64,000 nucleotides of DNA from Candidatus Yonathbacteria bacterium RIFCSPHIGHO2_02_FULL_44_14. Its GTDB lineage: Bacteria; Patescibacteriota; Minisyncoccia; Phycocordibacterales; UBA1550. Where the stretch lies: positions 55,628-119,627 of the forward strand of contig MHUT01000018.1 in NCBI GenBank assembly GCA_001823535.1. Reading direction: 5' to 3'. The translations under genes and the position numbers were made by a program. Within the stretch, counting starts at the first letter, position 1. Each line of letters opens with the position of its first letter. The notes under the pieces are model-generated. The model was not told the origin of the DNA, ran no database searches, and saw nothing but the letters and a program-made list of their open reading frames with translations. Positions 3,573-61,366 of this stretch are shown one piece after another.

Positions 3573-4070
3573 CTACGGACAAAAAGTTGTGTTTGCTGGA
3601 ATGGGTCCCGTAATCTGCTTTCCTATATTTAGACTGTCAACACACCAAGATAGCGCAGCGTTGGTGTTTAGCGGAACTGAGACCGCCCACGCATCACGCG
3701 TGGCAGACATAGCGCAAGTAGCGACCCATGTTGCATTACTATCTGAAAGTTTCTCTGCTGCAACGATAGCAGGGTTGATGCTTAATGTTGCCGCCGGATC
3801 AAACACAGTATTCGCAGTTGAACAGGCAGCAACGGTAGTGGCATAAACAAGAGCTCCGGCAGTGCCATAATTATTATTTGTATTATAGTAATTCTGAGCT
3901 TGTGTACGAAAATCTCCCAATATTGTCTTGATTGACGCATCTGCGGCCTTTGCGCGAGCGGCCTGGAGCGATACAATAACAACCGATGCAAGAATACCAA
4001 TGATGGCAATCACAACGAGAAGTTCGATAAGTGTAAAACCTTTTGATTTCATAAAATAATGTCTCGTCAA
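3573..4070 (-). CDS. type IV major pilin-like protein
   Basis: MKSKGFTLIELLVVIAIIGILASV... canonical type IVa pilin N-terminus, 165 aa. Confidence 0.75.
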   Translation of the reverse strand: MTRHYFMKSKGFTLIELLVVIAIIGILASVVIVSLQAARAKAADASIKTILGDFRTQAQNYYNTNNNYGTAGALVYATTVAACSTANTVFDPAATLSINPAIVAAEKLSDSNATWVATCAMSATRDAWAVSVPLNTNAALSWCVDSLNIGKQITGPIPANTTFCP

Positions 4071-4237
4071 TTGTTAATAAATGTGTTAGCACCGATATCA
4101 GCCTCATGGCTCAGAAACGCAGGTGGTCTGCAGGATGCTATTAGGTACTTAAGAGCAATGGACGATTACCCCTTCATCCACTTCATATTGCTAATAACAC
4201 TTTTATTCTACCAATAAATACGAATCCTTGCAAAACA

Positions 4238-4275
4238 AAACACCTGCCGTATAGCAGGTGCTTTGTTTAGAAAAG
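4238..4275 (-). terminator. intrinsic terminator downstream of pilA (CACCTGC hairpin + T-run on minus strand)
   Basis: The minus strand reads AAAGCACCTGC-tatacg-GCAGGTG-TTTTGTTTTG. Confidence 0.45.
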
Positions 4276-4313
4276 CGTACATAATGCTTTTCCTGCGAGA
4301 TTCAAAAAACTGA

Positions 4314-4796
4314 CTATGAAGCTGAGCAAACAGTTACGCCTGATGCAATGAGTGCGGCATTTGCGCGAGAGGCACCCATGCTATCAATACACCAATAACC
4401 TGCTCCCTTCAATTTTACTGAAGCTGCATAGGCGTCACCAGTAGCAGTGATATTACATGTTGCGTCTGTACCACCGTTCGTTGATACAGCATGATCAATT
4501 GCAGCTTGAACATTAGTATCCTGGAAAATATGGTTTGCTGTCGTAATAGGGCTTACTACTGCAATGGCTCCGCAAGCCGCAGAGTTTAGAACGGCTGCTG
4601 TCCCACTGTATTTATTGCCAATCGTATCAAACAGAACCTCAGCAGACGCGCGAATACCTGCGAGATCTGCTTTAATAGCCGCGTCTGAACCCTTCGCACG
4701 TGCACTGTTGAGTGACGCGAGAACAACCGATGCGAGAATACCGATGATTGCAATAACAACCAAGAGTTCGATAAGTGTAAAACCTTTTGATTTCAT
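4314..4796 (-). CDS. pilA: type IV major pilin (PilA-like)
   Basis: MKSKGFTLIELLVVIAIIGILASVVLASLNSARAKG... Near-identical N-terminus to the neighbouring pilin, i.e. paralogous pilins. Confidence 0.8.
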   Translation of the reverse strand: MKSKGFTLIELLVVIAIIGILASVVLASLNSARAKGSDAAIKADLAGIRASAEVLFDTIGNKYSGTAAVLNSAACGAIAVVSPITTANHIFQDTNVQAAIDHAVSTNGGTDATCNITATGDAYAASVKLKGAGYWCIDSMGASRANAALIASGVTVCSAS

Positions 4797-5037: not shown

Positions 5038-6234
5038 CTACACATTCCCCGCAATCTGGTAAATAGGAATGAGCACTGAGGCAAGCACTCCGCCGACACC
5101 GATACCGAGCGCCACAATCATGACTGGCTCAATCATAGAAATCACTGTATTGATGGCATTTGTTACCTCGCGCTGATAAAGAAGCGAGAGTTTCTGAAGA
5201 ATATTACCGAGCTCTCCTGTTTCTTCGCCAACCTTGACCATCTGAATCATTACGTTTGGTATTTCAGGGTGCCCCATAAGCGTAGCTGAAAGCGGTGCAC
5301 CACCCTTCACGGCGATAACTGCTTTCGATAGAATGTCTTGATAAATTTGATTATCAACTACTTTCGCGGTGATCTCGATGGACCGCACCATAGAGATACC
5401 ATTGCTTAGCATCACATGCATGTTGTCTGTAATGCGAGATAAATAGAGCATGCGATAGAGATTGCCGACGACAGGGAGCCAGAGTTTCAGATGCGCTAGA
5501 AAGGCTGTACCGCGTGTGTACCGCCATACAAAAAAGATTCCTGCGACAAGGACCATGAGAACAAATACACCGTAATTTACGAGGATAAAACTGGCTTTAA
5601 TCACGACTGTCGTATAAAACGGCACTTCTTGCCCGCCCTGAGTAATAACATCTGAAAGTTTTGGGATTACCAACGTGAGCATAAGCACCATCACGACAAT
5701 AAAGGTAAAAATAACAAAAGACGGATAAATGAGAGCACCGCGCGCTTTCGACATAAGCTCATACGATCGCTCGAGGTAGTCCGCGAGAGCCTCAAAAGTC
5801 TCCGAGAGTTTACCTGACTCTTCTCCTCCAATAACCATATTTACATAAAAATCTGAAAATAGACTTGGGTGCTTCAAAAAAGCGCCGGAAATAGGAACAC
5901 CGTTTTGAATGTCATCGGATATCTCAGTAAACTTCTTTGTGATTAATGGGTTCTCTGCCTCGGCAGCAATCAGGCGAAATGTTTTTAGCGCAGGAACATG
6001 CGCGTCAAGAAGCGTTGCAATTTGACGCGAAATAATCGAGATTTCTTTTACAGAAACACGATTAAAAATATTAATATCTATCTCAAAGAGGCCTTTTTTG
6101 TCGATGTCTCGCACTGAAATAACCACGAGGCCACTTCTTTGAAGCGCATTGATTGCAGAATCCTGGTTTTGTGCTTCGATATTGCCAGAGGTTTCTCCGC
6201 CTTCTTTTGTAACTGCTTTGTATGCAAAAAGCAT
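5038..6234 (-). CDS. pilC: type IV pilus assembly platform protein PilC (GspF family)
   Basis: 398 aa with the two-repeat GspF architecture and three TM segments; adjacent to pilT and pilB. Confidence 0.85.
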   Translation of the reverse strand: MLFAYKAVTKEGGETSGNIEAQNQDSAINALQRSGLVVISVRDIDKKGLFEIDINIFNRVSVKEISIISRQIATLLDAHVPALKTFRLIAAEAENPLITKKFTEISDDIQNGVPISGAFLKHPSLFSDFYVNMVIGGEESGKLSETFEALADYLERSYELMSKARGALIYPSFVIFTFIVVMVLMLTLVIPKLSDVITQGGQEVPFYTTVVIKASFILVNYGVFVLMVLVAGIFFVWRYTRGTAFLAHLKLWLPVVGNLYRMLYLSRITDNMHVMLSNGISMVRSIEITAKVVDNQIYQDILSKAVIAVKGGAPLSATLMGHPEIPNVMIQMVKVGEETGELGNILQKLSLLYQREVTNAINTVISMIEPVMIVALGIGVGGVLASVLIPIYQIAGNV

Positions 6235-26626: not shown

Positions 26627-26985
26627 TCCCTTTTCCTTCACCCTTTCTTAACCTTGCTCTTCTTTACAAAAAAACAGATCTGTCCTTATAATTAGGACGT
26701 TATTTTAAATTTACGCTCCCGCATTCAAGGTGAAATTAACCATGAAATTCACCTTTTCTTTTCCTTGCTTTTCTTTGCAAAAAACCAACTAACCCTTTTA
26801 ACTAAGGCATTATTGGGGAATTTACGCTTCGCAGTCAAGGACAAATTATCCATGCAATTTACCTTTTCTTTTCATTGACTGCCTATACATAAAATTCATT
26901 AAACCCTTACAGTGAGGGTATTATTTAAAAATTAACACCCTAATTATCAATGATAATCTTTCTTTGCTTTTAACCTTTTTCGAAT
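26627..26985. repeat. three degenerate tandem repeats of about 120 bp in an 800-bp intergenic region, each ending in an AAGGTGAAATT-type inverted repeat (iteron-like)
   Basis: Unit consensus ttcaccttttcttttccttgc...caaaaaac...ttacgct(c/t)cgca(t/g)tcaagg(t/a)(g/c)aaatta(a/t)ccatg(a/c)aat. Perfect 11-bp inverted repeat aaggtgaaatt/aatttcacctt at 26727-26755. Confidence 0.5.
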
Positions 26986-31890: not shown

Positions 31891-31954
31891 ATCTCCACAA
31901 ATATGCAAAAAACCCAGAACAAGCGTTCTGGGTTTTTTGCATATTTGTGGAGAT
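31891..31954. repeat. perfect 64-bp palindrome (30-bp arms, 4-nt centre) containing a bidirectional intrinsic-terminator core
   Basis: atctccacaaatatgcaaaaaacccagaac-aagc-gttctgggttttttgcatatttgtggagat. The left arm starts with atctccaca, identical to the last 9 nt of ssrA (23803-23811). Confidence 0.6.
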
Positions 31955-33736: not shown

Positions 33737-34498
33737 ATGGCTTTTTCTTTACCCTATCCCCCATGCTATACTACACCCATGCCATCCCCTCATCGCATCC
33801 TCCTCAAACTATCAGGCGAGCAATTCGCTGGTAAAAATGCCTTTGGTATTGATACTGATTTCCTTCTCGACCTCGCGCGCGAGCTTCACGAAGTGGTCAC
33901 GGAAACCAAAGTGCAAATCGTTATTGTTGTCGGTGGTGGAAACTTTCTTCGCGGAGCTGCTCTTTCAAAAAATGAAGCGACTATCGAGCGCGCAACTGCC
34001 GACTATATGGGAATGCTCGCAACCGTCATGAACGGCATGGCGCTTGTGGATATCCTCGAGCATTTTGGTCAGCCCGCTCGTCTCCAGACGCGTATTCGCA
34101 TTGATTCGGTCGCTGAACCATTTATTCGCAGGCGCGCAATTCGTCACCTTGAAAAAGGGCGTATCGTAGTCATTGGCGGAGGAACCGGCAACCCCTATGT
34201 GACCACCGACACCGCAGCGGTGTCCACCGCTCTTGAGCTCGGATGCGACATTGTCCTCAAGGCAACAAAAGTAGACGGTGTATATTCACAAGATCCAAAC
34301 AAACACAGCGACGCGGTAAAAATAACACAGATGTCACATCTCGACGTTATTAAAGATGAAAACATTTCAGTAATGGATAATGCGGCAATCTCTCTTGCTA
34401 TGGACAACAAGCTTCCACTTCGAATTTTTGAGCTTCTCACAAAAGGCAATATCAAGCGCATCGCAAACGGTGAAGAAGTGGGTACTCTGGTGAAATAG
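33737..34498 (+). CDS. pyrH: UMP kinase PyrH
   Basis: RILLKLSGE...VIVVGGGNFLRG...GTGNPYVTTDTAA amino-acid kinase family signatures. Confidence 0.85.
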   Translation: MAFSLPYPPCYTTPMPSPHRILLKLSGEQFAGKNAFGIDTDFLLDLARELHEVVTETKVQIVIVVGGGNFLRGAALSKNEATIERATADYMGMLATVMNGMALVDILEHFGQPARLQTRIRIDSVAEPFIRRRAIRHLEKGRIVVIGGGTGNPYVTTDTAAVSTALELGCDIVLKATKVDGVYSQDPNKHSDAVKITQMSHLDVIKDENISVMDNAAISLAMDNKLPLRIFELLTKGNIKRIANGEEVGTLVK

Positions 34499-34506
34499 AT
34501 AAATAA

Positions 34507-34550
34507 AAAATCCCGCATTTGTTCGGTCGAACAAATGCGGGATTTTTTAT
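34507..34550. terminator. bidirectional intrinsic terminator between convergent pyrH and 34551..34985
   Basis: AAAAAATCCCGCATTTGTTCG-gt-CGAACAAATGCGGGATTTTTTAT: 16-bp perfect stem flanked by A-run and T-run. Confidence 0.65.
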
Positions 34551-34985
34551 TTATCTGCTCCAAAACTCACTTGTAAAATAATTGTAGTTAATCATTCCCT
34601 GGTACGCGGCAAAAATATACCAAACAGAAAGAATGAGTCCGATGATTGAAAATATAAGCCCGGTACGTGCCCATTTTTGACGTAATGACCGAAGACCGAT
34701 AATAGAGAGCGTAATACCTGCCAACGAATACACAACACCAAAAAGAATCACAATCCATGAAATCATTGCAACCGCACCAAGAATCATTCCGATGAATGCG
34801 CATCTCTCTCGAGGCCCATCTGTTTTTTTAAGAAGCTCCGGCGGGATAAACGAGAACTTGGGCAATGATGTTAATTTATGTGGTGGTGCAGCGAGAATAA
34901 CTTCCTGCTGTTCTTGAATTGGATTAAAATGTTCTAGTTCCATTGCATATAGTGTACCAGATTTTTTACGCACACAAGATGACAC
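34551..34985 (-). CDS. small integral membrane protein (DUF4190-like, 2 TM at C-terminus)
   Basis: C-terminal pair of TM helices with Gly/Ile-rich pattern. Confidence 0.4.
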   Translation of the reverse strand: MSSCVRKKSGTLYAMELEHFNPIQEQQEVILAAPPHKLTSLPKFSFIPPELLKKTDGPRERCAFIGMILGAVAMISWIVILFGVVYSLAGITLSIIGLRSLRQKWARTGLIFSIIGLILSVWYIFAAYQGMINYNYFTSEFWSR

Positions 34986-35294: not shown

Positions 35295-35477
35295 TCGCTA
35301 AAATACTCGTTTCGGGTGCCAAAAAAGTCACTTTATAGTGACTTTTTTGGCACCCCCCCATAATACCCCAAATTGATTGACTTTTATTTCAAAATAACCT
35401 ACAATCTTCCTGACTCCGCAATGTGTTTGCGGTGTTGTTAGTTTACCCAAGAGCTTTGAAATAGGCTCTCAAATCCA

Positions 35478-36713: not shown

Positions 36714-36725
36714 TAACTCAGAACA

Positions 36726-36790
36726 CCAAGCAAAAAGCTCCAGCTTCTTTTAAAAAAAGCTGGAGCTTTTTGCTTGGTGTTCTACATGAC
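36726..36790. terminator. bidirectional terminator between convergent rplT and 36782..37432 (about 25-bp perfect stem)
   Basis: AACACCAAGCAAAAAGCTCCAGCTT-cttttaaaaa-AAGCTGGAGCTTTTTGCTTGGTGTT. Confidence 0.6.
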
Positions 36791-57945: not shown

Positions 57946-58047
57946 CCCAGCCCTTACTTTGTTGCGTAAATTAACCTTTACGCACACAACGCAGAAACTG
58001 CATAATATCCTAACTCCCTAAATTATGCAACAAAGCAGGGGCTGGGT
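57946..58047. promoter_or_regulatory. long imperfect hairpin in the rpsS leader (CCCAGCCC... / ...GGGGCTGGG family)
   Basis: cccagcccttactttgttgcgtaa (57946-57969) vs ttatgcaacaaagcaggggctggg (58024-58047). Same GGGGCTGGG core as the infC-rpmI leader hairpin. Confidence 0.4.
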
Positions 58048-58149
58048 CGTAATGTATCTTACCAAATTGAAGAATAATGTCAAATCGGACGGCGGGCGCT
58101 ATCCGTCTCGATTACAAAAAAGATGTAACAATTGACAAAAGGAGGGTCT

Positions 58150-58185
58150 GCGCTTCGCGCAGACCCTCCTTTTACAGTGTATTTT
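58150..58185. terminator. bidirectional intrinsic terminator separating the inserted secreted-protein genes from rpsS
   Basis: AAAAGGAGGGTCTGCGC-ttcg-GCGCAGACCCTCCTTTT. Confidence 0.55.
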
Positions 58186-58207
58186 TGGCAAACGTCAATT
58201 ATTTTCC

Positions 58208-59146
58208 CTAAAACTGCTTCACTTTGGCCCTGCAATCGGTGGGACAATTGAGGACTGTCTCCCCTGCATCACAGACGCTATTAATGACACAAACTGGAGC
58301 AGGATCCTCTACAACAACATTTTTGGAATCAAAACCCACACCGCAATCCAAACGATAAGAATACGTACCCGCTAGAGAAAGATTCCCTGTGGGAACATTA
58401 GTTCCCGATGATGCTTTTGCTCCCGACCAGCTTCCTGATGCAATACATGCGGTTGGAGGAGTTGTGGTCCATGAAAGAGTCGTCCCGGTGCCCGTTTGGA
58501 TAGTAGTGGCAGCAGGAACAATTAGAACGGTAACGGTAGGAATAGGAAGATGCACACCATTTGCGCCGGCAGAGATCGGAGCAAAGTCAATCCAACCTAC
58601 AACGTCTGAACCCCACGCGTAGCTTGAGAAGACTCCAGTTGCGGGAGCGACTGTCACGCCGTACGATGCGCCACTATCGCTGGTATCTTTTGAAAGCTTA
58701 ATCCAGCCATTCCATCCATCAGTTCTGCTTGCTCCCGTACAATCACCGTTGACCGTTCCCGCACACGCACGCGCCCAACCGGTAACCGTATCATCTGCCT
58801 CAAGGCGAGCTCCGTGATTTGGCACACTCGGATAACCGCTTAAAGGTGCCAAATTAATCCAACCGATATTCTCACTCCATGCGTATCCAGAAAAATCTCC
58901 CGTAGCTGCGCTGACACTTACACCATAGTTGCTCGTTCCGCACGAGCTGTCGTTTGTGCAACTAAAACTGACCCAGCCTATTGTCTCGCTCCATGCCCAC
59001 CCAGACACTGGGCCAGATACAGAAACGGCTTCAGCCTTCGGTGTTTCAAAAAAATTCGGATCTGTAATATAACCTGCGAAAACAACCGCTCCCACCACTG
59101 CGACGGTGAGAATATTTCGTAATTGGTAAATAAAAAATATTTTCAT
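58208..59146 (-). CDS. secreted repeat protein (three AWSENIGW-type repeats, Cys-rich C-terminus)
   Basis: Signal/TM, repeats SGWAWSETIGWVSF / SGYAWSENIGWINL / SSYAWGSDVVGWIDF. Confidence 0.4.
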   Translation of the reverse strand: MKIFFIYQLRNILTVAVVGAVVFAGYITDPNFFETPKAEAVSVSGPVSGWAWSETIGWVSFSCTNDSSCGTSNYGVSVSAATGDFSGYAWSENIGWINLAPLSGYPSVPNHGARLEADDTVTGWARACAGTVNGDCTGASRTDGWNGWIKLSKDTSDSGASYGVTVAPATGVFSSYAWGSDVVGWIDFAPISAGANGVHLPIPTVTVLIVPAATTIQTGTGTTLSWTTTPPTACIASGSWSGAKASSGTNVPTGNLSLAGTYSYRLDCGVGFDSKNVVVEDPAPVCVINSVCDAGETVLNCPTDCRAKVKQF

Positions 59147-59187
59147 ACTAAACAGTATATCACTTTATTTTATACTACCATAAATTA

Positions 59188-60006
59188 TCAATCAATACAT
59201 GTTACAACACAGGACCCTTTGTAATAGCTTATAGTCCATGTGCCATTATATGTGCCAGATACACCGCAAGCATCGCCACCGTTTGCAGCCCCGAAATAAC
59301 CCATAAAACAGGCTTTGTGCACGCCAGGATTTGCACCAGCACTGTACGTGGTCACATTTGAGAAACCGCCGCCACTACCGCTTGCAGATGTCCATGCTGT
59401 TCCGTTGCAAAACTCAGGGGCGTGCGTCGTGTAATTGTAGCGCTGAGTGCCTTCGGTCGAAGCGCTACAAACGGTAACCTGTGTCTCACTTCCCGTTCGC
59501 ACGCCACCCGCGACATCAAGTTTTACATTAGGGTTACCCTTTCCAATGCCGACATTTCCTGAATTCATAAGTGTCATAATTTCAGTAGTGGTGTCATTAA
59601 AAAAAGAAGTACGCCCGCCCACTGAAATATTTCTAATCGTGAACCATTTATCGATACCGCCATCAGACCAAATATTCCCATAAAGATCTCCAAACCCTAT
59701 ATTCCCGAGGATTGGGTCAGGGCTTTTAATTTGAAGTTGGCTTGAAGGGTTCGTCGTCCCTATGCCGACCTTGCCGTCAAATATCGCATTACTGTACCCT
59801 CGAATCAATCCTTCAATTCCAAGCCCTCCTGTGTGTGCAGTAGGATCACCTTTGTACTGGGATGTTCCGCTCACATTAATAGGCGCCGCGACATTCCCCA
59901 CAGGAGGTGTGGCTGTGGGTACTGTCCATGCAAAAGCGTAACCTACCCCAATAGAAAGGGTCAGCGCAACGAGAACGATTTTTAAGAATTGGTTGATATT
60001 TTTCAT
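59188..60006 (-). CDS. secreted fibre-like protein, paralogue of 45125..46294 N-terminal region
   Basis: Signal peptide then AWTVPTATPPVGNVAAPIN, plus GKVGIGTTNPSSQLQIK / GNVGIGKGNPNVKLDVAG tail-fibre-like repeats. Confidence 0.45.
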   Translation of the reverse strand: MKNINQFLKIVLVALTLSIGVGYAFAWTVPTATPPVGNVAAPINVSGTSQYKGDPTAHTGGLGIEGLIRGYSNAIFDGKVGIGTTNPSSQLQIKSPDPILGNIGFGDLYGNIWSDGGIDKWFTIRNISVGGRTSFFNDTTTEIMTLMNSGNVGIGKGNPNVKLDVAGGVRTGSETQVTVCSASTEGTQRYNYTTHAPEFCNGTAWTSASGSGGGFSNVTTYSAGANPGVHKACFMGYFGAANGGDACGVSGTYNGTWTISYYKGSCVVTCID

Positions 60007-60015
60007 GATTATTTG

Positions 60016-60405
60016 TTACTTGTTTGCTGCCGAGCGCATTGCATCTAATTCTAGGACTTGCTGTTCCGCTGTTTCTCCAGTATTTACTGATGTTGTTTTT
60101 TGTTTTACTCGCACAGAATCGAGATTTCTCACTTGATCTTTCATTGTGATTGTTGGTTGTGATATGTTGAGTCCTTGATATTGCGCTCGTAGTTTGTCTA
60201 ATTCTTCGTTCTGATATTTTAACAACTGCTCTGTTTCCGTTGGTTCTGTTGACAACACACTATCTGATCCTCCAGCGGTTCTCCTATCGATAGTTTGATG
60301 ATACCGGTAGTACGCCACAATAACAGCAATAAAAATCACACTAACGAGGATAATTGTTAAAAGTTTTTTCTTGCCTTCACCTGCTATTATGTTTTCGTTG
60401 TCCAC
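60016..60405 (-). CDS. membrane-anchored hypothetical protein (129 aa, GTG start)
   Basis: Single TM then coiled-coil-prone region. A G10 homopolymer lies 24 nt upstream on the coding strand. Confidence 0.35.
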   Translation of the reverse strand: MDNENIIAGEGKKKLLTIILVSVIFIAVIVAYYRYHQTIDRRTAGGSDSVLSTEPTETEQLLKYQNEELDKLRAQYQGLNISQPTITMKDQVRNLDSVRVKQKTTSVNTGETAEQQVLELDAMRSAANK

Positions 60406-60583
60406 GCGTTAAGTATACATTTATGTTGCCCCCCCCCCGCAATAAAATTTACAAAATTGGTGTGTATAACTTTTTGGGCTACTTTCGTAGGAAATCTGAA
60501 TATTCAGAAGATAGAACCCTGGCTTACGCCACATGGTATTGATGTGGAATGAATTTCAGCACTCCAATAACACCCAACAAACT

Positions 60584-60625
60584 ACTATCCCCAATTCCTA
60601 GCTATAGCCAGGAATTGGGGATAGT
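60584..60625. repeat. 42-bp palindrome A downstream of the PaaX-like gene
   Basis: ACTATCCCCAATTCCTAGCTA|TAGCCAGGAATTGGGGATAGT (one mismatch). Confidence 0.6.
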
Positions 60626-60657
60626 AGTAATAGTGGAAAATTGACAAAAAGGAGAAC

Positions 60658-61209
60658 CTAGAAAACACCAAAGTGTTCCTTAAGTTTTCGCACTCCTTCG
60701 ATCTCTTTTGCTTTGATATAGATAATATAGTCACGAACATCGAAAAATTCTCCGATGAAATCAACTTCATCTTTACAGAGATATGGCGACACAAAAACAG
60801 ATTTCTGAATTGGATACAGACCAAGCTCTTTAATCTTTCGACTCACCGCACTGCGTGCTCTCCTTTTTTGCTCCGGAATATCGAACATCACGATACGCCA
60901 CCAGCCGTCCCATTTTGGTGGTACTTTGAGTTTCATGTCGTCAAGATTGTATTCAAGAACTTTTTTCTGGCCTGCTCTAGTGATTTCTACAACTTCGTTG
61001 CCATTTTTTGTGTAGATATTTATAAGTTTCTTCTCTTGAAGACTTCTAATTGTGCGCTTAATTCGATATCGATCTCGTGCTCCTTTAGGCTTAAACAGTG
61101 GCACTATTTTAGTAAGCCCTGGCATTGCAAGACATGCAATAATAAAACCTCCGAGCGCAAGCCCCTTTAATATTTCCTTTGCGAGTTCGCCATTTTGATA
61201 ATCCCTCAT
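60658..61209 (-). CDS. wHTH + Cas2-fold protein (PaaX-like regulator architecture)
   Basis: C-terminal WWRIVMFDIPEQKRRARSAVSRKIKELGLYPIQKSVFVSPYLC matches the Cas2 beta1-alpha1-beta2 signature. The N-terminal 100 aa contains a winged-helix-like segment. 183 aa. Confidence 0.45.
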   Translation of the reverse strand: MRDYQNGELAKEILKGLALGGFIIACLAMPGLTKIVPLFKPKGARDRYRIKRTIRSLQEKKLINIYTKNGNEVVEITRAGQKKVLEYNLDDMKLKVPPKWDGWWRIVMFDIPEQKRRARSAVSRKIKELGLYPIQKSVFVSPYLCKDEVDFIGEFFDVRDYIIYIKAKEIEGVRKLKEHFGVF

Positions 61210-61225
61210 TACCTTTTCAGCATAC

Positions 61226-61273
61226 CATACTATCCCAAAATTCTAGCTATAGCTAGAATTTTGGGATAGTATG
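61226..61273. repeat. 48-bp perfect palindrome B immediately upstream of the PaaX-like gene
   Basis: CATACTATCCCAAAATTCTAGCTA|TAGCTAGAATTTTGGGATAGTATG. Related to palindrome A with symmetric (compensatory) differences. Confidence 0.6.
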
Positions 61274-61366
61274 TTGTCGGTACTATTACTGCTAAACATA
61301 TCGACATACCTGAGAAATAATAAAAGCCAATCTGCTGTACAGCAGATTGGCTTTTATTATTTGTTG

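What the first reader, a model, noticed from the sequence alone, without database searches (positions are those of the whole stretch)
60584..61273. Two long palindromes with symmetric (covarying) sequence differences flanking a wHTH + Cas2-fold gene
Palindrome B (48 bp, perfect) sits directly upstream of the 183-aa PaaX-like gene and palindrome A (42 bp, one mismatch) directly downstream. They share ACTATCCC...TAGCTATAGC...GGGATAGT but differ at CCCCAATTCC vs CCCAAAATTC, and the change is mirrored in both arms of each site. Dyad symmetry is therefore maintained independently at each site. That pattern is expected for hairpin or cruciform-forming elements such as IS200/IS605-like ends, MITE termini or recombination sites, or for dimeric operator sites co-evolving with a binding protein. 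A Cas2-fold protein with no CRISPR array nearby and a self-contained palindrome-bounded cassette could be a small mobile or addiction-type module.
Basis: seen in the sequence. Interest (0 to 1): 0.6.

Follow-up and report, generated by a model that had tools for sequence, protein, structure and literature searches.

The report
Palindrome-flanked PaaX-like regulator gene cassette
A small DNA-binding protein gene in a Patescibacteria (CPR) genome is bracketed by two 48-bp palindromes that are most likely its own binding sites, and the same layout recurs in roughly half of the related loci examined, across a large and apparently undescribed protein family.

Summary
A perfect 48-bp palindrome (61226-61273) lies upstream of a 183-aa gene (60658-61209, minus strand). 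A 48-bp palindrome with one mismatch (60581-60628) lies downstream. Their differences are mirrored in both arms.

The pattern holds beyond this window. At least 38 of 80 homologous loci carry such a pair, with locus-specific arms and about 90% arm complementarity. Mirrored differences number 53, against about 23 expected.

The protein has a winged-helix domain and a Cas2-fold domain (Pfam PaaX_M). It lacks PaaX's C-terminal ligand domain. The conserved outer blocks lie 14-20 bp from the centre, matching the E. coli PaaX operator TGATTC-N27-GAATCA. The upstream palindrome abuts or overlaps -10-like hexamers.

In a related groundwater genome, six further solo copies sit in unrelated intergenic regions. 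Their variable mid-arm is exactly mirrored.

Best reading: an autoregulated PaaX-like DNA-binding protein with flanking operators and a few further genomic sites.

I found no evidence for a mobile or addiction module. Synteny is stable, there is no transposase, and no viral copies were found.

Unexplained:
- why non-contacted positions stay perfectly symmetric
- what the downstream site does, although it shows an RNA-hairpin-like G·U bias
- whether the conserved Cas2-type aspartate is catalytic

The parts
61226..61273 (.). Upstream palindrome (U). 48 bp, perfect, no loop: CATACTATCCCAAAATTCTAGCTA|TAGCTAGAATTTTGGGATAGTATG. Proposed operator overlapping the gene's own promoter.
   Evidence: The family-wide equivalent appears. 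A 97%-identical orthologue (L081) differs by one mirrored pair of substitutions.
61224..61232 (-). Candidate -10 region (TAGTAT / TATGGT on the sense strand) at the gene-proximal edge of U. Inferred, not shown.
   Evidence: Read from the sequence. Close relatives have TATGAT here. A -10-like hexamer scoring at least 5/6 occurs on the gene-proximal side of U in 21/38 loci, against 3/38 for the same side of D.
61212..61218 (-). Shine-Dalgarno-like GAAAAGG, 2 nt before the ATG.
   Evidence: Read from the sequence.
60658..61209 (-). 183-aa protein. It has a hydrophobic N-terminal segment, a winged helix (about residues 44-85) and a Cas2-fold domain (about residues 100-183). The Cas2-type motif WRIVMFDIP..QKSVF is conserved.
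   Evidence: Pfam PaaX_M 2.3e-20, CRISPR_Cas2 1e-5. TIGR01573 scores 26.8 against a cut-off of 24.5. Foldseek top hits are PaaX 8a39, Rv0674 3kfw, MarR-type wHTH proteins and Cas2. Invariant residues W100, W104, F109, D110, P112, R119, Q135, S137, C145, E148 and F151 come from 101 sequences.
60581..60628 (.). Downstream palindrome (D). 48 bp with one mismatch, which is a G·T wobble on the sense strand. It has the same outer and central blocks as U and a different, mirrored mid-arm. Proposed second operator, and probably also a 3' RNA hairpin.
   Evidence: It is perfect in orthologue L081 and carries a different single mismatch in L082. Across the family, D sites show a sense-strand G·T over A·C excess (24 vs 8, p=0.007) that U sites lack (15 vs 11). 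Only 11/38 D sites are followed by a T-tract.

Best explanation
The gene encodes a small sequence-specific DNA-binding protein of the PaaX type. It has an N-terminal winged helix and a Cas2-fold domain that, as in PaaX, holds two subunits together with their winged helices far apart.

Proposed binding: a dimer binds each roughly 42-48-bp palindrome through the conserved outer blocks. In this locus these are CTATCCC / GGGATAG, 14-20 bp on either side of the centre.

Proposed roles of the sites:
- The upstream palindrome covers the gene's own core promoter, so the protein represses its own transcription.
- The downstream palindrome is a second site for the same protein. It may act as a looping partner, or as a roadblock that insulates the cassette from its housekeeping neighbours. 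It also forms the 3' hairpin of the mRNA.
- In related genomes the same palindrome type occurs at a handful of other intergenic positions just upstream of promoters, so the protein probably controls a small, heterogeneous set of other genes.

Paralogues in one genome have diverged to different palindromes, which avoids cross-talk.

Perfect symmetry at positions the protein probably does not read is best explained by hairpin-mediated correction between the two arms (intrastrand template switching or conversion), acting on top of selection for two-fold symmetric binding.

Shown: the anatomy, its recurrence in about half of the homologous loci examined, mirrored covariation, promoter overlap, the solo copies and the domain composition.

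Inferred: binding, repression, looping or roadblock action, and the correction mechanism.
For: Protein:
- It contains the PaaX_M Cas2-like domain plus a wHTH, and the nearest structures are PaaX and Rv0674.
- The E. coli PaaX operator is TGATTC-N27-GAATCA, and PaaX autorepresses by occluding RNA polymerase (PMC9493321).

Site geometry:
- The conserved outer blocks lie 14-20 bp from the centre, the same geometry as the PaaX operator.

Recurrence of the architecture:
- At least 38 of 80 homologous loci have a similar U/D pair.
- Arms are locus-specific and about 90% complementary.
- Mirrored U-vs-D differences number 53, against 23.5 +/- 3.7 expected (maximum 38 in 2000 permutations).

Promoter overlap:
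- -10-like hexamers sit on the gene-proximal side of U in 21/38 loci, against 3/38 for D.

Solo copies:
- Solo WIN-type palindromes with no family gene nearby occur in L112, L118, L120, L124, L130, L135 and L084.
- All are intergenic, and 6 of 7 lie 50-120 bp upstream of a start codon.

Selection on the sites:
- Between two paralogous cassettes in L066 the palindromes are conserved while the 3'UTR between stop codon and palindrome is not.
- All three sites in L084 share a derived centre (TACCTATAGGTA), which is concerted change with the local protein.

Vertical inheritance:
- The same protein is found in the same context in 18 contigs.
- Syntenic GH57|cassette|GH15 orthologues occur in divergent MAGs.
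Against: - No binding experiment exists.
- A dimeric reader of the outer half-sites does not need the inner 27 bp to be a perfect palindrome. Yet the variable 6-nt mid-arm is exactly mirrored in 13 of 15 WIN-type sites, with 11 variants. Something beyond PaaX-like binding acts on these sites.
- The genes next to solo sites share no functional theme: response regulator, HD domain, PIF1, TyrRS, PBP1, Nth, ScpA.
- Solo sites sit upstream of promoters rather than on them.
- The Cas2-type aspartate and the QKSVF motif are invariant. That is more than a pure dimerisation role would seem to need.
- The role of D is inferred only.
- The N-terminal hydrophobic segment is unresolved. It could be part of the wHTH core or a membrane anchor.
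Confidence: 0.6

Rival explanations
1. Structure-specific system analogous to REP/RAYT. The palindromes act as extruded DNA hairpins or cruciforms. The wHTH-Cas2-fold protein recognises them, and its conserved aspartate nicks or cleaves them. The protein maintains or propagates its own palindrome family, and its gene sits between two copies.
For: - The gene is flanked by cognate palindromes and solo copies are dispersed in intergenic regions next to unrelated genes.
- The variable mid-arm is exactly mirrored in 13/15 sites, which is what stem pairing demands and duplex reading does not.
- The central 2-4 nt tolerate asymmetry, like a loop.
- All copies in one genome change in concert (L084).
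- One site is chimeric (L084_U).
- The Cas2-type Asp is invariant.
- The gene is vertically stable, as RAYT genes are.
Against: - The protein has no HUH/Y1, DDE or recombinase domain. Cas2-fold proteins are not known to carry out strand transfer (my own knowledge).
- Copy number looks low: about 8 sites of this type in one genome and only 2 in this 64-kb window.
- The conserved outer blocks match PaaX duplex-operator geometry.
- U is positioned on the promoter.
- No solo site was found between convergent genes.
Confidence: 0.15
2. RNA-level autoregulation. Both palindromes are transcribed as 5' and 3' stem-loops of the mRNA. The protein (a Cas2/VapD-like RNase with a helix-binding domain) binds or cuts them to set mRNA stability.
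For: - D sites show an excess of G·T over A·C mismatches on the sense strand (24 vs 8, p=0.007). This is expected if G·U pairs are tolerated in a sense-strand RNA hairpin.
- Very stable hairpins are predicted.
- Some Cas2 and VapD proteins are ribonucleases (my own knowledge).
Against: - U sites show no such bias (15 vs 11).
- U sites abut or overlap -10-like hexamers, so most of U is probably not transcribed.
- Solo sites lie in divergent promoter regions (L118, L130).
- The outer-block geometry matches a DNA operator.
- No Rfam family matches, only sub-threshold generic hairpin hits.
Confidence: 0.08
3. Small mobile cassette (IS200- or MITE-like). The two palindromes are its ends and the protein is its mobilising enzyme.
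For: - Proteins 84% identical with the same palindrome type sit in different contexts: after rplB here, in a type IV pilus cluster in L084, and near a ClpB-like gene in L122.
- Here the cassette and three unannotated genes interrupt the conserved rplB-rpsS junction.
- Several paralogues occur per genome.
- Similarity between the two L066 cassettes begins and ends at the palindromes.
Against: - No transposase or recombinase domain is present.
- Identical proteins are always found in one context across many samples.
- Syntenic orthologues occur across divergent MAGs.
- No near-identical copies were found at different loci, and none in 2.9 million viral contigs.
- The boundary argument is weak, because neutral flanks would be saturated at that divergence.
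Confidence: 0.05
4. The palindromes are ordinary bidirectional terminators or insulators unrelated to the protein.
For: - The consensus scan flags D as terminator-like.
- This genome uses very long perfect palindromes as terminators elsewhere: 31891-31954, 34497-34556, 36720-36783 and 61315-61362.
Against: - U lies upstream of the gene, 16 nt from the ATG.
- Only 11/38 D sites have a T-tract.
- The two sites of a locus share sequence and differ between paralogues.
- The real rplB terminator lies next to U and is unrelated in sequence.
Confidence: 0.03

Closest known systems
PaaX, the phenylacetyl-CoA-responsive repressor of the paa operons (E. coli, Pseudomonas; PDB 8a39, 3l09)
   Same: - N-terminal winged helix followed by a Cas2-like dimerisation domain (Pfam PF20803). 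PaaX is the best structural match.
- The PaaX operator consists of inverted hexamers separated by 27 bp, about 39 bp in total. That geometry matches the conserved outer blocks here.
- PaaX represses its own promoter by occlusion (PMC9493321).
   Different: - This protein has no PaaX_C ligand-binding domain and ends at residue 183.
- TIGR02277 scores far below its cut-off and there are no paa genes nearby.
- The whole interval between the half-sites is a perfect palindrome.
- A second site lies downstream of the gene.
- There are many paralogues per genome.
- The Cas2-type FDIP/QKSVF motif is retained.
Cas2 (CRISPR adaptation protein) and VapD
   Same: The ferredoxin-like domain has the aspartate at the end of the first strand and a QxSVF motif. 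It scores just above the Pfam and TIGRFAM Cas2 thresholds.
   Different: It is fused to a wHTH. There is no cas1 and no CRISPR array in the window. No cas gene appears among the neighbours of 80 loci.
REP elements and their RAYT genes (REPINs)
   Same: - The gene is bracketed by cognate extragenic palindromes.
- Solo copies lie in other intergenic regions.
- Compensatory changes preserve the stems.
- Each paralogue has its own palindrome type.
- The gene is inherited vertically.
   Different: - The protein is not an HUH/Y1 transposase.
- The palindromes are longer and perfect.
- Copy number is apparently a handful, not hundreds.
- One copy overlaps the gene's promoter.
Repressors with auxiliary operators and DNA looping (lac O1/O2, gal, deo)
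   Same: There are two similar sites for one protein a few hundred bp apart, with one at the promoter.
   Different: Here the second site always lies just past the stop codon, so the loop would enclose the regulator's own gene. Looping has not been shown.

Membership tests
PaaX family (TIGR02277 / COG3327) | Central Cas2-like dimerisation domain (PF20803) | tested here: met
   PF20803 at 2.3e-20, 72.9 bits against a cut-off of 24. All 30 sampled homologues match.
PaaX family (TIGR02277 / COG3327) | N-terminal winged-helix DNA-binding domain | tested here: inconclusive
   AF2 predicts helix 44-59, a beta-hairpin wing at 63-76 and preceding helices, with pLDDT 50-78. Foldseek hits PaaX and MarR/PadR wHTH proteins at weak E-values. 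The Pfam PaaX N-terminal model is not hit. Only weak wHTH families appear (DUF6293_C, DUF4364).
PaaX family (TIGR02277 / COG3327) | C-terminal helical PaaX_C domain that binds phenylacetyl-CoA, and a full-length equivalog score | tested here: not met
   The protein ends after the Cas2-like domain at 183 aa. TIGR02277 scores 13.8 bits against a cut-off of 264.55. Homologues are nearly all 180-200 aa.
PaaX family (TIGR02277 / COG3327) | Genomic association with paa catabolic genes | tested here: not met
   Neighbours here are ribosomal protein genes and unannotated ORFs. Neighbours of 80 loci are unrelated housekeeping genes.
PaaX family (TIGR02277 / COG3327) | Operator of inverted half-sites about 27 bp apart, with autorepression at its own promoter | tested here: inconclusive
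   The geometry matches: conserved blocks lie 14-20 bp from the centre, compared with TGATTC-N27-GAATCA. U abuts -10-like hexamers. Binding and repression were not tested.
CRISPR Cas2 | Cas2 fold with a conserved N-terminal-strand aspartate | tested here: met
   PF09827 scores 26.0 against a cut-off of 23.8. TIGR01573 scores 26.8 against 24.5. D110 is invariant.
CRISPR Cas2 | Adjacent cas1 and a CRISPR array | tested here: not met
   No array is present in the 64-kb window. No cas genes appear among the neighbours.
REP/RAYT | HUH-Y1 (IS200/IS605 TnpA-like) transposase domain | tested here: not met
   No such Pfam or NCBIfam hit was found.
REP/RAYT | Gene flanked by its cognate palindromes, with many dispersed extragenic copies | tested here: inconclusive
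   Flanking is met. Dispersed copies exist but are few: at least 6 solo sites in one related genome and none in this window. A whole-genome census was not possible.
IS200/IS605 or MITE-type mobile element | Multiple near-identical copies at different loci, target-site features and presence/absence polymorphism | tested here: not met
   Identical proteins were found in a single context only. None were found in viral contigs. No empty sites could be examined.
Intrinsic terminator | G+C-rich stem followed by a U-tract | tested here: not met
   Only 11/38 D sites have at least 5 T in the next 9 nt. The mean is 3.2, close to what base composition predicts.

The most novel reading that the evidence does not exclude
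The palindromes are not, or not only, duplex operators. They may be hairpin or cruciform substrates of a catalytically active Cas2-fold domain. On this reading the family is a REP/RAYT-like guardian-and-palindrome system built on a Cas2 fold instead of an HUH transposase. The protein would maintain, correct or propagate its own perfectly symmetric palindrome family. This would be a free-living relative of Cas2 that recognises palindromic repeats on its own.
Probability: 0.12. Interest if true: 0.85.

Novelty: new variant of a known kind. Interest (0 to 1): 0.6.

Why it matters
Patescibacteria (CPR) have tiny genomes and few recognisable regulators. This family is large: 519 clusters at 50% identity with E<=1e-30, and several paralogues per roughly 1-Mb genome.

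Each member comes with an unusually long, easily recognised cognate site on both sides of its gene. This gives three things:
- a ready-made set of protein-site pairs for working out a recognition code
- a way to predict regulons in organisms that cannot be cultured
- a natural case of paralogue insulation through operator divergence

The exact mirroring of non-conserved positions also makes these sites a clean natural system for studying how long perfect palindromes are kept symmetric. The retained Cas2 catalytic motif bears on what Cas2-fold proteins do outside CRISPR.

Tried and rejected
- CRISPR connection: no array and no cas genes.
- Known RNA family: Rfam gave only sub-threshold generic hairpin (miRNA-model) hits.
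- Terminator function for D: no consistent T-tract.
- Conserved operon partner or regulon: the nearest neighbours on each side of 76-77 loci match 115 and 76 different Pfam families, and none recurs in more than 3 loci.
- Phage or mobile origin: no family member in viral contigs. Identical proteins are always in one context. One apparent inverted duplication (L097) is an assembler fold-back at the D palindrome.
- Defence-system membership: PADLOC gives only Cas2 domain hits.
- Protein-DNA recognition code: sorting sites against recognition-helix sequences gave no signal that could be separated from phylogeny.
- Membrane anchor: the N-terminal 19-aa window is strongly hydrophobic in 59/69 homologues. 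The deeper AF2 model places it as helix plus strand of the winged-helix domain at low confidence. This is left unresolved.
- Literature: eight full-text searches were run. Terms combined PaaX, Cas2-like, winged helix, Patescibacteria/Parcubacteria, COG3327 and perfect palindromes in CPR. None found a description of this architecture.

Full report
**Observation**

- 61226-61273 is a perfect 48-bp palindrome with no loop.
- 60581-60628 is a 48-bp palindrome with one mismatch.
- Both share ACTATCCC..CTAGCTATAGCTAG..GGGATAGT. They differ only in a 6-nt mid-arm (AAAATT vs CAATTC), and the difference is mirrored in the opposite arm of each site.
- The motif occurs nowhere else in the 64-kb window, with none expected by chance.

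The 183-aa ORF between them is on the minus strand (60658-61209). The perfect palindrome is therefore upstream, 16 nt from the ATG, with a GAAAAGG ribosome-binding site in between. The other palindrome is 29 nt past the stop codon. A third 48-bp palindrome at 61315-61362 is unrelated in sequence. It is the A/T-flanked bidirectional terminator of rplB.

**Genomic setting**

The window is from a Patescibacteria (CPR) genome. The closest homologues of the protein are labelled Yonathbacteria, Minisyncoccia or Paceibacterota.

The cassette and three ORFs without Pfam matches lie between rplB and rpsS, interrupting the ribosomal protein cluster. A 97%-identical orthologue sits at the same place, after rplB, in other assemblies.

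**The protein**

Pfam assigns residues 98-171 to PaaX_M, "PaaX protein central Cas2-like domain" (2.3e-20). Residues 104-144 weakly match Cas2, and TIGRFAM Cas2 scores just above its cut-off. The full PaaX equivalog fails by a wide margin (13.8 vs 264.6 bits), and there is no PaaX_C domain.

Two AlphaFold models give a confident ferredoxin-like domain (residues 100-183, pLDDT about 90) and a lower-confidence winged helix (helix 44-59, wing 63-76). The best structural matches are E. coli PaaX (8a39) and Rv0674, followed by MarR/PadR winged helices and Cas2.

The Cas2 hallmark motif is invariant in 101 homologues (WRIVMFDIP...QKSVF, with D110).

The N-terminal segment is strongly hydrophobic across the family. 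Whether it is a membrane anchor or the first helix and strand of the winged helix remains open.

The family is large and uniform. It has 519 clusters at 50% identity with E<=1e-30 and 2498 with E<=1e-10, nearly all 180-200 aa. There are at least 507 loci in species-representative genomes, often several per MAG.

**The palindrome pair across the family**

In 80 fetched loci, long zero-loop palindromes cluster at the two ends of the homologous gene. With centre-anchored pairing, 38 loci including the window have a clearly related upstream/downstream pair, usually 605-690 bp apart.

The arms are specific to each locus or paralogue. The layout is shared:
- A|T at the centre
- G/C at positions 3-4
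- a variable stretch at positions 5-9
- A/T at positions 10-11
- a conserved block at positions 12-18
- the end of symmetry near position 19-20

About 90% of arm positions are complementary. Where the two sites of a locus differ, the difference is mirrored far more often than chance: 53 cases against 23.5 +/- 3.7, with a maximum of 38 in 2000 permutations.

Micro-evolution shows the same thing. The 97%-identical orthologue L081 differs in the upstream palindrome by one mirrored pair (T>C with A>G). The downstream palindrome is perfect in L081, has one mismatch in the window and has a different one in L082.

Between two paralogous cassettes that flank uvrC in L066, the palindromes are conserved while the 3'UTR is not. 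The sites are therefore under constraint.

**The palindromes are not confined to the cassette**

I scanned metagenome contigs with CTATCCC-N7-TANCTATAGNTA. The scan found cassettes (L106, L122, L128). It also found six palindromic solo sites with no family gene within the fetched DNA: L112, L118, L120, L124, L130 and L135. All come from the Hainich H41 groundwater samples that also hold cassette L122, at similar coverage. L084 has a third site 2.4 kb upstream of its cassette.

All solo sites are intergenic, next to unrelated housekeeping genes. These genes are a response regulator with a DUF5671 protein, an HD-domain protein, PIF1, TyrRS, PBP1, Nth and ScpA. Six of the seven lie 50-120 bp upstream of a start codon. 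Two are in divergent promoter regions and none lies between convergent genes.

Across 15 sites of this type the 6-nt mid-arm has 11 variants. It is exactly mirrored in 13 sites (permutation mean 1.6, maximum 9 in 100,000).

**Evidence for DNA operators of a PaaX-like protein**

The E. coli PaaX operator is TGATTC-N27-GAATCA, and PaaX represses its own promoter by occluding RNA polymerase (PMC9493321). That places its half-sites 14-19 bp from the centre. The conserved outer block here sits at 14-20 bp in the window type and 12-18 bp family-wide. A roughly 40-bp site is therefore what this domain architecture is expected to bind.

The gene-proximal side of the upstream palindromes carries -10-like hexamers in 21/38 loci, against 3/38 for the same side of the downstream palindromes. 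In the window's close relatives TATGAT straddles the palindrome edge. This position fits autorepression.

**The downstream site**

It is not a canonical terminator. It is present whatever the orientation of the next gene.

Its mismatches show a sense-strand excess of G·T over A·C (24 vs 8, p=0.007). The upstream sites, on the same strand a few hundred bp away, do not (15 vs 11). The upstream sites act as an internal control against mutational bias, so this suggests the downstream palindrome is also selected as a hairpin in the mRNA 3' end. The sample is small and phylogenetically non-independent.

I propose that it is both a second protein site (looping or roadblock) and a 3' RNA hairpin. This is inference.

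**What is not supported**

Mobility or addiction:
- No transposase-like domain or conserved partner gene was found.
- Identical proteins are always in one context.
- GH57|cassette|GH15 synteny is kept across divergent MAGs while the palindrome centre drifts.
- No member occurs in viral contigs.

Relocation over long timescales is not excluded. Proteins 84% identical with the same site type sit in different contexts, and the rplB-rpsS junction here has clearly received an insertion.

**What remains odd**

A dimer that reads outer half-sites does not explain why variable inner positions are perfectly symmetric, or why symmetry extends into the -10-like hexamer on the far side of U.

Three explanations are possible:
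- The arms correct each other through hairpin intermediates. This is template switching, a known mutational route for quasi-palindromes (my own knowledge). It fits the transient single mismatches seen in populations and the other very long perfect palindromes in this genome.
- The protein, or a second activity of it, recognises an extruded structure.
- The inner palindrome has a separate RNA or DNA structural role.

The invariant Cas2-type aspartate keeps the nuclease possibility open. All three sites of L084 have changed in concert, and one site appears chimeric (L084_U). These would fit either conversion among sites or co-evolution with the protein.

**Verdict**

The best explanation is an autoregulated PaaX-like DNA-binding protein with two flanking operators and a few further genomic sites (confidence about 0.6).

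It is not a member of PaaX proper, of CRISPR Cas2 or of REP/RAYT. It works most like PaaX and resembles REP/RAYT in layout. I found no description of this architecture in the searchable literature. I rate it a new variant of a known kind, with interest 0.6.

Noticed in passing
window 57988-61366: The conserved rplB-rpsS junction of the ribosomal protein cluster is interrupted by about 3.4 kb. The insert holds the cassette plus three same-strand ORFs (129, 272 and 312 aa) with signal-peptide-like N-termini and no Pfam match. rpsS has its own good promoter-like site (TTGACA-16-TAAGAT, 58083-58056).
   Followed up: partly
window 31891-31954, 34497-34556, 36720-36783, 61315-61362: Unusually long perfect palindromes with arms of 24-32 bp. 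Their cores look like A/T-flanked bidirectional terminators, and two lie between convergent genes. The perfect pairing extends well beyond what termination needs. This suggests that long palindromes in this genome are generally kept symmetric.
   Followed up: partly
window 35314-35355: A 42-bp palindrome (GGGTGCCAAAAAAGTCACT-TTAT-AGTGACTTTTTTGGCACCC) lies in a divergent intergenic region. Its layout resembles the family sites: a G/C outer block, an A-tract and an inner block. It could be the site of another regulator or paralogue encoded outside the window.
   Followed up: no
window 60429-60438: A run of 10 C (G10 on the coding strand) lies about 25-35 nt upstream of the GTG start of the 129-aa gene. 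Such a homopolymer tract could cause slipped-strand phase variation of that promoter.
   Followed up: no
L066 2887-5996: Two paralogous cassettes in inverted orientation flank uvrC. Each has its own palindrome pair, and the two types differ by mirrored changes (CTAG vs TTGG next to the centre). A fifth site lies at 5963-5996.
   Followed up: partly
L135 952-993 and 1696-1737: An endonuclease III (Nth) gene is bracketed by two palindromes of two different types: the window type and an L006-like type. Flanking of a gene on both sides is therefore not exclusive to the regulator's own gene.
   Followed up: partly
L097 1-3718: The whole contig is a perfect 3.7-kb inverted duplication centred on the downstream palindrome. 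This is almost certainly an assembler fold-back artefact. Such palindromes can corrupt metagenome assemblies.
   Followed up: yes
L084 3550-4599: The solo palindrome in this type IV pilus locus lies directly beside an IS element (rve integrase, 3718-4575 by gene call; 3718-4599 by ORF scan). The upstream cassette site in the same locus is a chimera of two mid-arm variants.
   Followed up: no
L118 and L130 flanks of solo sites: Genes next to the solo sites have extended -10 elements (TGGTAGAAT) only 6-8 nt before the start codon. This suggests leaderless mRNAs are common in this lineage.
   Followed up: no
L026, L028, L029, L039: Family members with palindrome pairs (centre TTGCGATCGCAA) occur on contigs assigned to Syntrophaceae or Thermodesulfobacteriota MAGs, one of them 141 kb long. 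The family may not be restricted to Patescibacteria, unless these contigs are binning errors.
   Followed up: no
window 26637-26870: A tandem repeat of a 110-bp unit, 2.1 copies, 77% matches.
   Followed up: no
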